Source of the DNA: Narcine bancroftii
Lineage: Eukaryota
Assembly: GCF_036971445.1 (NCBI RefSeq)
Contig: NC_091471.1
Location: forward strand, 350,300,001 to 350,364,000
Reading direction: 5' to 3'
Length of the DNA stretch: 64,000 bases
Shown one piece after another: positions 15,801 to 21,800 of this stretch. How positions within the stretch are numbered: position 1 is the stretch's first letter; every line of letters starts with the position of its first letter. Made by a program: the position numbers and the translations under genes. A model generated the notes under the pieces. That model ran no database searches. It worked only from the letters and a program-made list of their open reading frames with translations, and was not told where the DNA came from.

Positions 15801-18800
15801 AATCTCTGATGAGATCACACTTGGAATATTTTCTGGTCACCTCATTACAGGAAGGATGTGGAAGCTATGGAGAGTGTAGAGGGATTTACCAGAACATTGC
15901 TTGGATTGGAAACCATATCTTGTGAGGCAAGGTTAGCAGAGCTAAGGGTTTTCTCTTTGGAGCAAACAAGGACAAGAGAGGAGGTCTAGATAAGGTAGAC
16001 AGCAGCACCTTTTTCCTCCTAGGGAAGGAGTAGCAAACACCAGTGGTCATTTGTACAAAGTGATGGGAGGAAAGATTAGGAGAAACACCAGGAGCATATT
16101 AAAAAAAAACCCACAATTTGTGGATGCCTGAATTGCATTGCCAAGGCTGGTGGTGGAGACTGGAAAAATAAGAGCATTTAATAAGCCTGTTAAGACGGGT
16201 ACTTGGATGAAAGAAAAATAAAGGGTTACAATTAGGGAGTTTTTAGTAGGAATATATAGGTTGGCACAATATCATGGGCTGAAGGGCCTCTACTATACTG
16301 TAATGTTTTAATCTGTACAACTGCCAAAACTCACTGCAAAAAGGTGGTACTTGTCAAACATTTGTCGAACAGTAACAGGCCCACGAGCCTGTGCTGCCCA
16401 TTAAACCCAATTGACATACAACCCCCTGTATGTTTTGAAGGATGGGAAGAAACTGGAACTCCTGGGGAAACCCATGCAGACACATGGATAACGTACAAAC
16501 TCCTTACAGGCAGCGCACGATTTGAACCCTGGTTTTGATTGCTGGCGCTGTAGTGTTACTAACCGCACTGTGGTTAGAACTTAAGGCAGCAATTGTAAAT
16601 GAACAGCTTAATCATGAAACTACGAAAGCAAGAATTTTCAGCTAAACATCAGTTATTCAGATACTGTAGGTCTGATAAGGATAGGATACATGCACTGTCA
16701 ATTTCCAAATCACAAGCAACATTTTTTTAAAACACAAGAAATGAAGAGCTTCCTGCATGAATTCACATCAAGTTTCAATATTAACTGCTCACCCATCTCT
16801 CCTCATTCGTCTTGTGAGTTCATCACATCTTCGCTTTGTTTCCACAAAAATAATTGTTTTGTTTTCTTTTTCACTCATTATTTCCTCCATCAGCCTTAGC
16901 AATCTAATTTACAAAGCAATAAAAGTTTTGGCAATTTGAGAATTATAGAAGCAGATTTAACGAAAGGCATTAATGCAAAGTAAACTTAATTTAACAATTC
17001 AATTGTATTTATGGTTACAGTACAACTCTGATTATCCAAAATCTCCATTTATCCAAAATATTTTTGGAGCCTAACTGACCAGGGATGTCGGGCTTTTGGC
17101 GGGAGCAGCAGTGGACCTCAGGCTCCCAGCATGAGCGAGGACTCGATGGGGAAGTGTTGGTGATCAGTGGTGGCCATTTTAAAGTGAGAATTAAACTTTA
17201 TTTTAATGCTTAAAAAGTCTTTCTTGTTGTTTGTTGTGGTATAAATATTGCTTCAAGTGATTTGCTGTAGCTACTGGGCTATTTTAAATGACCGGTTCTC
17301 CAATAAAACCATTTATCCAAAATGGGCCCTGGGTGTAGATGTGATGGAGGAATTGAGAGAATGGAATCCTTGCAGGATACAGGCTGTGAAGAGGTGTTGA
17401 GATAGTTGAGGGTGTCTGTCAAGTTTGTCTCCTGAGGTGGAGACAGATCGAGGAAAGAGAGTTTTGCGGGAGATGGACCAAGTGAATTTGAGGTCGGGAT
17501 GGAAGTTGGCAGCACAGAGGATAAAGTCAATTAGCTTGTTGTGGGTACATGAGGCAGCAACAAAGTATATAAAAGCTATGCAACTTAAATATTCCCTTTT
17601 AAAATGTCTGATAAAAATTTCCAAATCCTGTTCAATCCTTCCATGCTCCTTTTACCCAGCAGTAAATGGCTTTTCTGCAGAAGGGTGAAATAAATTTGAC
17701 TTATCCAAAGATGCTTCAAATTTCCTGGAGAACATATTTAAAATTTCCAGCCCTCTGATACTCACTTGGGAGTACTTTCAAATCTTTTGAGAACAAGTTA
17801 CAAGTCTTCATGCATTGTCACTACAATAGTTCAATTGGTATTGGAGGGAGAGCTTCTGTATAAGCTGGATTAAATTTAAAACATTTTCAAACAGGTGCTG
17901 CTTTTTGGTAAATTTATGGAAAGGAAAACATTTAAAGAGGATGGGCAAAATGCTTTCTGTTTATGCTAGGTCAGTGTATACCCATGCGCAGACAGGAATG
18001 GAAAATATTTTTCTGAGCACAAAGGGTAAAGTACCTAACATTAAAAAAGATCAAAGGATGTTTAAGAGTAGAAAAAGTTTATTCAGTAGTACCTAGCAAT
18101 CAGACAAATATTGCTATTGACATCTTACTCACTTGTCATCCTTCTCAACCTCCTGACATACATCTATAATCTGCAGAATGTTGTGATTGGCACTAAGCTC
18201 CAATGCGCCAATATTAATCTGAACATATTCCTTCAAGAAATCTTCAGCCAACTGTCGAACTTCTTTAGGCCAAGTTGCACTCCACATCAAGGTCTGCCTG
18301 TCAGGCTAGAGGAAAAATAAAGTCCATAAACTGCAGTTTTTTAAAAAAGCATGAGATAACATGAACATACAATAATGATACATGGGGAAATTTATTCCAC
18401 AACCACACTTTATTTGTACCCACAAAAGACAAAAAAAATTTTTTTTTTTTTTAAAAGCCATGTTTTGGTCTTCAATTACATAGGTATTGCTCAATTTAGG
18501 GAAAGGACATGTTTGAGAAAGTGTTACACAATATTCCATAAATCGAAGAGGATGAACAAAATGTTTCTTGGTATGCTTGTACAATGCCTTCCAAGGGAAG
18601 TGGGGCACACAACTATTGCAGAAAAAAGCTACAAAGTAATGTTCCCAGAGTCAGGAGATTTGTATAAAAACACAGAACTGCTGGAGAAACAGGTCTCATA
18701 GTGCCCATAGCAGGTAAAGATATATAACTGATGTTTCAGGCCCCAAGTCCTTCAAAATATCTTCAGAGCTTTGTGTAAATTCAGAGACCATCTTTAGCTG

Positions 18801-21800
18801 CTCTACAGCAGCACCACTGGTCAATTATTGAATAGCAAGTTGTAACCAACTTCAAAATGGTTTTCAACAGATCAATTAGTCAGACATTTTAAAAGGGAAT
18901 ATTTAAGTTGCATAGCTTTTATATACTTTGTTGCTGCCTCATGTACCCACGACAAGCTAATTGACTTTATCCTCTGACTTGCCAACTTCCATCCCGACCT
19001 CAAATTCACTTGGTCCATCTCCCGCAAAACTCTCTTTCCTCGATCTGTCTCCACCTCAGGAGACAAACTTGACAGACACCCTCAACTATCTCAACACTTC
19101 TTCACAGCCTGTATCCTGCAAGGATTCCATTCTCTCAATTCCTCCATCACATCTACACCCAGGACAAGAGAGGACCTTCTTCAAACAATGTGGCTTTCCC
19201 TCTCCACCATCAACTCAACACTCACCTGTATATCTTCCATTAACCACAAATCTTCCCTGACTCCCTCCAACCCTACACAAGGACAGGATTCCACTTGGCC
19301 TCACCTGCCACCCCACCAGCCTTCGCATCCAACACATCCTCCTCTGCCACCTTCTACATGATCTGGGAGATCACTTTGTTGAGCACCTCAGCTGTGTTCG
19401 CCACAATAGCACTAATCTCCCAATGGTCACCCATTTCAATTCGCCATTCCATTCCCTTGCTGACATATCTGTTTATGGTCTTATGCACTGCCAGAATGAG
19501 ACCACCTGTAAATTGGAGAACCAATACCTCATCTTATTGCACATGGCATTTATATCAGCCCCCCTCCCCCGTCTCTCCATTGTTTCCTTTCGCACAAAAT
19601 TGATAAATTCTTACCTCATTTCTTACATCCAAGTAACACCTTTTGTTGGTCTAGATTCCTCCCCCATTGCTTGAATTCTGTGACTTTCTGCTTCAGGCTT
19701 ATTCTGCTCAATCCTTGAAGGGCTCAGACCCCTAACATTGTGAATATCTTTGTCTCCTATGGATGCTGAAAAGACCAGCCTAATTCCACCAGCATTTCAG
19801 TGTTTTTTTAACTGGCTATAATATACAAAAATATTTAAAACACTTACCCTAATTTGGTCGACAATTTTCCGAATCTGGGGTTCAAAACCCATGTCAAGCA
19901 TTCGATCTGCTTCATCAAGTACCAGATATGTACATCTTCTAAGATTAGTCTTTCCAGCTTCCAAAAAGTCTATCAATCTACCAGGTGTTGCAATACAGAT
20001 CTCCACACCTGCACCACAGAAGTTGGTTAAGCCAATTAAATAAAAGTACAGTAGAAATGACATTTTATAACTCAAGGTAATACCTCGCTCAAGATCCCGA
20101 ATCTGTGGACCCTTTGGTGCCCCTCCATAAATACACGTTGATTTTAGACGCGATACTCTTCCATAATCATGCGCCACGTGTTGTACTTGTTGAGCCAACT
20201 CTCTTGTTGGTGCCAGTACTAAACACTACAAAAAATAGTTTTATAATTTAATGTTAACTTTCAATCAATTAAAATACTTGCAAATCAAATAAAAGAAACT
20301 TACTATAGGACCGTCACCCCGCTCCAGGAAAGGTTGGTGGTTTATGTGGACAATAGCTGGCAACAAATACTGCAAAAAAAAAAAAAGAAAATTATAACTC
20401 ACATTAATTGGACAAGTCAGAAAGGGAGGGGTGGGTTTAAAACTCACTAGTACAATTAAAATTCCCCTAATTAACTCAAGCCAACACCAAATTTGGGAGT
20501 GGGGAATACAGTGGAATGGCAAGATTACAAATATATCTGTTGACAAAAGACTAGGCAGTGATCGAGTCAGTCAATTTGAGCAGCCATTACTTGCTTTGGT
20601 GATAGTCACAGATCACACACACATCATTGAAAACACCAAGATAATAAACTTTGATCAGGCAGTTTTCAGAAAGAAATGGAGTTTCTGGAGTAATGGTTCT
20701 CAATCACTGGGGAGGAAATTCTGGTTTATTCATAACCAGCATGTGCAAAAAGACTATTTGCAAAGAAGTGCCACATGAGAGAAAACAAGGAACCTGGGTT
20801 AGATCCACAGAGAACACGATTGGCAAATGTTCTGTTGCAAGCTCTTTGCTTTAAAACAAACATGCTCCCATCATTCCAACCTACAGAGCTGGGGTGGCAC
20901 CATGACACAGCTGCTGCCTCACAGCTCCAATGTCACGGGACCAGTGCTGTTTTTGTACGACATTCGCTTGTTCTCAACTTTGTGGGCTTTCCCTAATTCA
21001 ACCTGCATGACTTTGGCAAAACAACCACTGCAAATTGCACAAGGCACACAGGAGACCACAGATGCTGGAATCTGAAGTATCAAGAGGACTGATGAGGAGT
21101 TTCTGTCCACATGGTGACTTTTTTTCTTCCTCCCACTGATGGAAGCTATTTGATCCGCTGAAATTTTCCAGCAGTGTTTATCTATAAATTGGCCTTTGTA
21201 TCCAGGCAAGCAAAAGAGTCTGGGACAGGAGTAGATAAAGTTGACAGGTGCTGGGTGAAGAAAATGGGAAAGATGCTACTTGATGGTCAGCAGGGATTTA
21301 GAGGGAAAACATTTCCAAGCTGCATGACCACAAGATGGAATTAAAGGTCATGTGGTCAGAGGCTGCAGTTTATTTCTAACAGTCACACAAATAACCCAAA
21401 CTATCATTATACTTACAGCAAGTGTTTTACCAGATCCAGTCTGAGCAATTCCAACCATATCCTTGCCACTAAGAGCAACAGGCCAGCCTTGAGCCTGAAT
21501 AGCAGTTGGTTCTGTAAAATTCTGTTGCATTAAAACATCCAACACATATGCTGTGGAGGGAAATGTGAAGTAGGGTTTAATTTTTGTTTAAGTGCAAGTT
21601 TGTATCACGACTGAGCAAATAAATACAGTACATTTCCCCATATCTGAAATTTGGTTAACAAAAAACTTCACGAACCCCAACTTTTATCAGCAGCAACATG
21701 ATGTCACAAGTTGAGAAAAATTTCACCCGACGTGCTCACGCAGGGGTCTGACGTGGCGCCAGTCTGGTAACAACAGAGCTCAGAATCAGCCAGGAAGACA

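What the first reader, a model, noticed from the sequence alone, without database searches (positions are those of the whole stretch)
17328..19163. Near-perfect 284-bp inverted duplication flanking DDX5 exon 8
Seen: 17328-17611 (intron 8) and 18880-19163 (intron 7) are reverse complements with only about five mismatches, 1.27 kb apart, with exon 8 in the loop. The arms share a Penelope-like fragment and about 60 nt of adjacent non-TE-looking sequence, and the left arm abuts a truncated MITE. This points to a recent local templated duplication rather than two independent insertions. Known: intronic reverse-complementary pairs drive back-splicing, exon skipping and ADAR editing. Inference: a lineage-specific circRNA of exon 8, or frame-shifting skipping of this 173-nt SAT-motif exon, giving a second dsRNA control element in a helicase gene. 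It is also a substrate for inversion of exon 8.
Basis: partly seen in the sequence, partly recalled or inferred. Interest (0 to 1): 0.7.

Follow-up and report, generated by a model that had tools for sequence, protein, structure and literature searches.

The report
Inverted repair scar around DDX5 exon
A 284-base piece of one intron of the RNA-helicase gene DDX5 was copied backwards into the next intron, most likely during repair of a DNA break, so that one exon now sits in the loop of a long RNA hairpin; this layout is well known, and whether it changes splicing here could not be tested.

Summary
The inverted pair is real: 17328-17611 and 18880-19163, 284 nt, 5 mismatches, 1,268 nt apart, around DDX5 exon 8. 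Short-read contigs carry both arms, so it is not a misassembly. The right arm is the donor: about 46 nt of unique intron 7 plus the start of an old retroelement fragment that runs on past the arm. The left arm replaced the last 30-35 nt of a MITE in intron 8, with a 2-nt microhomology. This fits one fold-back (snap-back) templated insertion at a break, perhaps a transposase cut. Both arms have mutated since, and no change restores pairing. The pre-mRNA should form a 281-bp duplex. An engineered 297-bp equivalent in mouse Tbxt causes skipping, so low-level exon 8 skipping is plausible; here it would give a premature stop and probably decay. A circle is unlikely to be abundant from a 173-nt exon, and inversion is unlikely because the longest perfect run is 118 nt. 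The RNA contigs held no DDX5 exon 8 record, so skipping, back-splicing and editing are untested. Verdict: a new example of a known layout, probably tolerated rather than selected.

The parts
17328..17611 (.). Left arm, in intron 8: the derived, inverted copy (284 nt)
   Evidence: inner junction bridged by X1 record 6 (17541-18341, 0 differences), outer junction entered for 30 letters by X1 record 4
18880..19163 (.). Right arm, in intron 7: the donor copy (284 nt)
   Evidence: repeat-like sequence continues past 19163; X5 record 26 leaves the left arm exactly at 17328 and X10 record 14 shows 4 differences, the number of right-arm alleles in its span
18880..18926 (.). Non-repeat, A/T-rich part of the donor (about 46-48 nt), copied to about 17565-17611
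   Evidence: GC 0.25; repeat-family pieces end at 17564-17567 and depth falls from hundreds or thousands to single figures
18927..19810 (+). Old, broken multi-copy retroelement fragment (Penelope-like by recalled motifs), whose first 237 nt lie in the arm
   Evidence: 69-79% matches to another copy near 41.3-41.8 kb; depth up to 35,962 in X1 bin 17436-17511; no Pfam, atlas or phmmer confirmation
18655..18755 (-). Second, inverted copy of the retroelement's end inside intron 7 (about 70% to 19744-19810); a weak competing intra-intron pair
   Evidence: duplex -76.5 kcal/mol against -41.3 +/- 4.8 in 100 shuffles
17018..17327 (.). MITE (TA target, CAGT end; Tc1/mariner-pogo type by recall) lacking its last 30-35 nt, right terminal repeat included
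   Evidence: alignment with copies at 21621-22050 and 10960-11230; tails printed; a family copy fits up to 17329, i.e. a CC microhomology with the arm (X1 record 3)
17612..17613 (.). TA directly after the left arm: candidate right target-site duplication of the MITE (inferred)
   Evidence: TA makes up 6% of dinucleotides here, so suggestive only
18133..18305 (-). DDX5 exon 8, 173 nt, in the loop; 574 nt from the right arm and 521 nt from the left arm
   Evidence: 12 of 16 pyrimidines at the acceptor, donor 7 of 9 to consensus
19848..20008 (-). DDX5 exon 7 (684 nt outside the right arm)
16793..16903 (-). DDX5 exon 9 (424 nt outside the left arm); holds the premature stop if exon 8 is skipped
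   Evidence: spliced to exon 10 in X5 (loose end at 16790, matched by eye)

Best explanation
Origin: a DNA break at the right end of the MITE in intron 8 was repaired by templated synthesis. The 3' end on the gene's sense strand folded back on itself (or used the nascent pre-mRNA, which gives the same product), primed 1.27 kb away in intron 7, copied 284 nt, let go, and joined the MITE side through a CC microhomology; 30-35 nt of the MITE were lost. Fold-back explains why the copy is both local and inverted. A single-end cut by a transposase is a candidate cause of the break. Consequence: nascent DDX5 RNA can form a duplex of about 280 bp with exon 8 in the loop. It is probably edited by ADAR and may cause a little exon 8 skipping, which would be removed by nonsense-mediated decay. 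The allele has been tolerated for a long time, so the effect on mature DDX5 mRNA is probably small, and nothing shows selection for it. Shown: the repeat, donor and acceptor, lost MITE end, frame shift on skipping. Inferred: the repair pathway, the cause of the break, duplex formation in cells, editing, low skipping.
For: Donor/acceptor: the retroelement continues past 19163 but stops at 17328; the arm holds unique flank that no transposition of that element would carry to both places. MITE tail missing, family copy fits to 17329, donor shows TAA one base after the inner breakpoint, as the acceptor flank does. No poly(A) and no duplication around the insert. Snap-back synthesis makes inverted repeats across a repair junction (PMC2943611, passages); fold-back spacers of 766-70,466 bp with 2-8 bp microhomology (PMC3907307, passages); filler DNA at transposon excision sites, usually from nearby (PMC4423477; PMC3014980). 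Family consensus in loose ends suggests the left arm is ancestral at 17512-14 and probably 17393, the right arm at 17540: three events on both arms, all breaking pairs. 281 of 284 right-arm bases pair with the left arm in the predicted fold. Exon 8 splice sites look ordinary for this gene, and in human data only exons with weak acceptors showed a stability-skipping link (PMC13019027 section 21).
Against: No RNA evidence either way for exon 8. In mouse Tbxt an engineered 297-bp reverse complement in the same layout caused skipping, more than the Alu pair did (PMC10901737 section 8), and Alu deletions cut skipping in 7 of 8 reporters by about 1 to over 40% (PMC13019944, passages), so the effect here need not be small. 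The insert is longer than the 1-123 bp fillers in rice and than typical SD-MMEJ inserts; the empty site was not seen, so the TA and the transposase cut are unproven. Three events are too few to test selection. Absence in E rests on one contig.
Confidence: 0.66

Rival explanations
1. The duplex loops out exon 8 in a sizeable share of transcripts; the frame shift sends them to decay, so the pair lowers or tunes DDX5 dose in this lineage (a natural Tbxt-insRCS).
For: Same geometry as TBXT (arms over 500 bp from the exon, about 1.4 kb apart) and as the 297-bp engineered insert; duplex -550 kcal/mol; stop 78 nt before the next junction (50-55 nt rule recalled).
Against: Splice sites of exon 8 are not weak for this gene; small effect sizes genome-wide; no compensatory change; a large loss of an important helicase should be selected against (inference). 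If the helicase opened the duplex the feedback would be positive, unlike the plant DEAD element, and DEAD-box proteins unwind short duplexes only (recalled).
Confidence: 0.2
2. The main product is a back-spliced 173-nt circle of exon 8.
For: Short inverted repeats suffice for circles (PMC4201285); inverted pairs are enriched near circRNAs.
Against: ZKSCAN1 exons of 400 nt or less circularised poorly or not at all, and stronger hairpins sometimes inhibit (PMC4201285); efficiency falls with exon length in S. pombe, a result the reviewers found less convincing (PMC4479058). The circle has stops in its rolling frames.
Confidence: 0.07
3. Two separate retroelement insertions later made alike by gene conversion, or a copy moved by the retroelement's own machinery.
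For: Most of the arm is a very abundant repeat; a second near-identical inverted pair of a young element lies in the window (634 nt, 17 differences).
Against: The arms share unique flank and end sharply at both sides; other family copies differ by 14-21 letters in about 100-130; no tail or target duplication; MITE end deleted.
Confidence: 0.04
4. Assembly artefact.
For: No single listed record spans both arms; the outer left junction is entered by 30 letters, one short of the tool's 31-letter rule; X1 may be the assembled sample.
Against: Inner left junction bridged with 71 and 730 letters and 0 differences (X1 record 6); right-arm signs in two other studies (X5 record 26, X10 record 14); collapsed contigs on the arm have about twice the neighbours' depth (10 against 4.3-5.9); five differences that sort into ancestral and derived on both arms.
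Confidence: 0.02
5. The pair matters as a recombination substrate that inverts exon 8.
For: Inverted repeats can mediate inversion (PMC2583991).
Against: Longest perfect runs are 118, 71, 65 and 25 nt; cutting homology from 232 to 134 bp lowered recombination 20-fold in mouse cells; an inverted exon 8 would be a null allele.
Confidence: 0.01

Closest known systems
TBXT AluY/AluSx1 pair and the engineered mouse Tbxt-insRCS allele (PMC10901737; passages and section 8 read)
   Same: About 300-nt inverted arms, each over 500 nt from one exon, about 1.3-1.4 kb apart; insRCS is also a backwards copy of the gene's own neighbouring intron.
   Different: There skipping was shown and is in frame; here it is untested and would shift the frame. 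Here the copy arose by repair, not by retrotransposition or engineering.
Inverted Alu pairs in loop-out skipping and circRNA formation (PMC13019027, PMC13019944, PMC4201285; passages and named sections read)
   Same: Reverse-complementary intronic arms flanking an exon; stable predicted duplex.
   Different: 98% rather than roughly 77% (228 of 297 at TBXT) identity; one duplication event; 173-nt exon is short for a circle; no RNA evidence.
Snap-back SD-MMEJ and fold-back inverted duplication (PMC2943611, PMC3907307; passages read)
   Same: Local, inverted, templated copy; small deletion at the target; short microhomology; spacer in the reported range.
   Different: Insert is longer than the SD-MMEJ examples (templates sought within 20 bp) and far smaller than the megabase fold-back cases, which also delete the chromosome end.
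Class 2 templated sequence insertions and filler DNA at transposon sites (PMC5110952 part 1 of 4; PMC4423477, PMC3014980 passages)
   Same: A DNA patch without tail or target duplication; size within the 73-414 bp seen experimentally; sits at a DNA-transposon end.
   Different: TSIP donors are distant; rice fillers were 1-123 bp and follow full excision, whereas most of this MITE stayed.
Plant DEAD element in DRH1/RH46 (bioRxiv 10.64898/2026.01.23.701338; abstract and outline only)
   Same: RNA structure in the pre-mRNA of a DEAD-box helicase gene that could steer splicing to non-coding forms.
   Different: DEAD is conserved across land plants, acts by negative feedback and was tested; this pair is young, repeat-derived, unconserved and untested.

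Membership tests
Exon-flanking reverse-complementary match (RCM) pair | Complementary arms in the two introns flanking an exon | tested here: met
Exon-flanking reverse-complementary match (RCM) pair | Cross-exon duplex predicted to win over competing pairs | tested here: met
   281 of 284 paired in the exon 7-9 fold; -550 against -76.5 kcal/mol for the intra-intron pair; prediction only
Loop-out exon skipping locus (TBXT type) | Skipped isoform seen and dependent on both arms | tested here: inconclusive
   X5 shows no DDX5 exon 8 contig, only a paralogue with 32 differences; exon 7 lay outside the stretch laid
Loop-out exon skipping locus (TBXT type) | Weak 3' splice site of the looped exon | tested here: inconclusive
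   12 of 16 pyrimidines, mid-range among the 12 acceptors (9-16); crude count, no MaxEnt score
RCM-driven circRNA locus | Back-splice junction in RNA | tested here: inconclusive
   none among the joints printed; 71 joints not shown; contigs only
RCM-driven circRNA locus | Exon long enough for efficient single-exon circularisation | tested here: not met
   173 nt against poor circularisation at 400 nt or less in one reporter system, with a 360-nt exception; a tendency, not a strict rule
ADAR-edited inverted repeat | A-to-G clusters in RNA against DNA of the same individual | tested here: inconclusive
   A>G plus T>C places 43 of 102 in X5, 44 of 109 in X1, dominated by repeat and paralogue differences
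Templated insertion at a DNA break (snap-back / fold-back / class 2 TSI) | Insert copies another locus, without poly(A) or target duplication | tested here: met
Templated insertion at a DNA break (snap-back / fold-back / class 2 TSI) | Deletion and microhomology at the junctions | tested here: met
   30-35 nt of MITE lost, judged from sister copies; CC at the outer junction; inner junction only near-homologous
Templated insertion at a DNA break (snap-back / fold-back / class 2 TSI) | Pre-insertion allele seen in a relative or individual | tested here: inconclusive
   relative E's contig leaves at 17626 and its 131 further letters were not printed
Autoregulatory RNA structure of a helicase gene (DEAD element type) | Conservation and covariation across species | tested here: not met
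   arm not seen at this place in relative E (one contig); three mutation events, none compensatory; no Rfam match in 16900-19900
Autoregulatory RNA structure of a helicase gene (DEAD element type) | Splicing responds to the helicase's own activity | not testable with these tools
   needs expression experiments
Penelope-like element (arm content) | Reverse transcriptase plus GIY-YIG endonuclease similarity | tested here: inconclusive
   no hit in Pfam (4 of 4 blank), atlas (best 0.79 and 0.82) or phmmer (0 hits); label recalled; a GIY-YIG-like motif (recalled) lies in a related copy's frame 41621-42025

The most novel reading that the evidence does not exclude
A repair scar has made a natural version of the engineered Tbxt-insRCS allele inside DDX5: the near-perfect duplex loops out exon 8 in a sizeable, tissue- or temperature-dependent share of transcripts and sends them to decay, so this lineage has gained a new brake on DDX5 dose, set by ADAR or other dsRNA-binding proteins. 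It would show that fold-back repair, without any transposon pair, can create exon-skipping switches in core genes.
Probability: 0.15. Interest if true: 0.58.

Novelty: new member of a known kind. Interest (0 to 1): 0.28.

Why it matters
As it stands it is a clean worked example of how an exon-flanking inverted pair can arise in one repair event at a transposon end, with donor, acceptor and lost bases all readable. If skipping proves substantial it would be a natural test of the loop-out model with 98% arms in an important gene of a slowly evolving vertebrate; if it proves negligible it shows that strong splice sites can ignore a 280-bp duplex. I found nothing on this locus in the listings of two searches (9 of 9 papers listed; 15 of 1,035 listed); only listings were seen.

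Tried and rejected
No whole genome is held, so copy number and the genome-wide rate of such pairs are unknown. No listed run is on record as RNA (no RNA holder listed; 5 of 16 rows are guessed RNA); 4 of 16 runs were laid, on 16600-18879 only, which leaves out exon 7 and the right arm as a reference, and all were contigs. X5 has no cover on most of exon 9 and no DDX5 contig on exon 8; holes prove nothing, and the tool drops human-like records. X5 record 26 carries the left-arm letter at 17393 yet leaves at 17328 like the right arm: this is an A:C site and could be editing, but its depth (11.2 against 4.3-7.3 nearby) points to the two arms being collapsed, and an allele is also possible, so I give it no weight. 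X10 is labelled another organism but its unique pieces are identical to the window at depth 2-2.9, so it was not used as a relative. X12's depth of 5.61 in bin 16904-16979 could not be assigned to a contig, so a join across the MITE and arm is not claimed. That 3 of 5 mismatches are A:C is too few to mean anything. Rfam found nothing over the arms. Searches for the Penelope label were blank. Paper searches returned 0 papers; PMC8082928 had nothing relevant; PMC2800235 only notes single-end break intermediates in vitro. CEP95-like frames upstream (42950-43186, 50865-51236) gave no Pfam hit; that label is recalled. Supplements were not consulted.
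Full report
Observation. Shuffled controls gave at most 22 nt in 20 of 20 runs. A 13-exon minus-strand model reads open for 648 codons. Exon 8 (18133-18305, 173 nt) lies in the loop, 574 nt from the right arm and 521 nt from the left. A POLG2 exon downstream and a sub-threshold mir-3064 match at the end of intron 11 point to DDX5; the link of these neighbours to DDX5 is recalled. The organism looks like a cartilaginous fish from its repeats; that is recalled and was not tested.

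Is it in the DNA? Four of 16 listed runs were laid on 16600-18879. In X1, record 6 runs from 17541 to 18341 without a difference and so bridges the inner end of the left arm. The right arm shows indirectly. X5 record 26 fits 17328-17499 and goes on for 174 other letters from exactly the arm's end. X10 record 14 fits 17489-17611 with four differences, the number of right-arm alleles in that span. No listed record spans both arms, and X1 may be the assembled sample, but a misassembly is unlikely.

Which arm came first? The right arm is about 46-48 nt of unique, A/T-rich intron plus the first 237 nt of an old multi-copy retroelement fragment that runs on to about 19810. On the left the same sequence stops dead at 17328. 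The right arm is therefore the donor. The left arm sits where the last 30-35 nt of a MITE should be, right terminal repeat included. A family copy of that MITE fits to 17329, giving a CC microhomology. A TA follows the arm, as expected for the MITE's target duplication, but TA is 6% of dinucleotides here. There is no tail and no duplication around the insert.

Mechanism of origin (inferred). A break at the MITE end, resection, fold-back of the sense-strand 3' end onto intron 7, 284 nt of synthesis, release and microhomology joining give exactly a local inverted copy. Snap-back synthesis is described for short inserts (PMC2943611, passages), and fold-back with spacers of 766-70,466 bp for large ones (PMC3907307, passages). 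Filler DNA at transposon sites is common in plants (PMC4423477; PMC3014980). Priming on the nascent pre-mRNA or a fork template switch (PMC2583991) would leave the same product and cannot be excluded. A transposase cut is plausible but unproven, since the pre-insertion allele was not seen.

Age. Loose-end consensus letters of the repeat family suggest that the left arm keeps the ancestral state at 17512-14 and probably 17393, and the right arm at 17540. That is three events, on both arms, none restoring a pair. Relative E differs by 67 letters in 564 over intron 8 and part of exon 8, and its contig leaves the window at 17626 without entering the arm. The arms differ by 1.1-1.8%, so the copy is about a tenth as old as that split. 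With the epaulette shark rate of 7e-10 per generation (PMC10587355, passages), three events give 7.5 million generations (1.6-22 million). This depends on the organism guess and ignores gene conversion. The allele has probably been carried for a long time.

RNA consequences. The fold of exons 7-9 pairs 281 of 284 bases across exon 8; the arm duplex is -550 kcal/mol, and the only competing pair I found in intron 7 is -76.5. Skipping exon 8 puts a stop 78 nt before the exon 9/10 junction, a decay target by the recalled 50-55 nt rule. The closest experiment is mouse Tbxt, where a 297-bp reverse complement of one intron placed in the next caused skipping (PMC10901737 section 8). Alu deletions lowered skipping in 7 of 8 reporters by about 1 to over 40% (PMC13019944). 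Against a large effect: genome-wide, only exons with weak acceptors showed a stability-skipping link, and a weak one (PMC13019027 section 21), and exon 8's sites are ordinary for this gene by a crude count. A circle is disfavoured by the short exon (PMC4201285; PMC4479058). Inversion is disfavoured by perfect runs of at most 118 nt.

What the RNA data did and did not show. X5 (RNA by guess) has an exon 9-10 splice, but exon 8 is covered only by a paralogue's contig with 32 differences. Skipping, back-splicing and editing are therefore untested, neither supported nor refuted.

Comparison. It works like an exon-flanking reverse-complementary pair and meets that definition in sequence. It is not shown to be a skipping, circle or editing locus. 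It fails the conservation test for an autoregulatory element such as the plant DEAD structure (abstract only). Three earlier notes of this scan describe similar local inverted copies around exons in other genomes; they are unchecked AI notes, but suggest that the class is not rare.

Verdict. Real, well explained as a templated repair scar, of a known architecture. The open and testable point is how much exon 8 is skipped. Interest 0.28; a sizeable, regulated skipping effect has about 15% probability and would merit about 0.58.

Noticed in passing
window 13561-13623 (-), end of DDX5 intron 11: Match to Rfam mir-3064 over the whole model, E 1.7e-9 but 47.9 bits against a gathering score of 76: a diverged homologue of the DDX5 intronic microRNA hairpin, ending at the exon 12 acceptor.
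   Followed up: partly
window 28529-29162 and 36252-36885: A second near-identical inverted pair, 634 nt with 17 differences, made of 3' ends of a young LINE-like element (RTE type by recall), 7 kb apart upstream of DDX5.
   Followed up: partly
run X12 (organism E) laid on window 18133-18193 and 16600-16903: A contig of depth 14.6 has 11 letters left out at 18153, and record 17 (same depth) has 50 unlisted letters before exon 9; 61 minus 11 is 50. This suggests a DDX5 copy in that relative with exon 8 joined straight to exon 9 but intron 9 kept, a partly processed pseudogene. Inferred by arithmetic; the joint was not printed.
   Followed up: partly
window 18977-18979: The three-letter change in the right arm recreates a six-letter word that stands 13 nt upstream, so it may be one short template-slip event.
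   Followed up: partly
window 18655-18755 and 19700-19810: Two copies of the retroelement's end face each other in inverted orientation within intron 7, about 70% alike.
   Followed up: partly
window 10960-11230 and 21621-22050: Two more members of the same MITE family, with both ends intact, downstream of DDX5 and in intron 3.
   Followed up: partly
window 531-800 (-); 42950-43186 and 50865-51236 (+): POLG2 exon downstream of DDX5 and CEP95-like frames upstream on the other strand (label recalled, no Pfam hit).
   Followed up: partly
window 53640-53773: A 137-nt imperfect palindrome (79%) in the self-comparison; not related to the intron 8 MITE.
   Followed up: no
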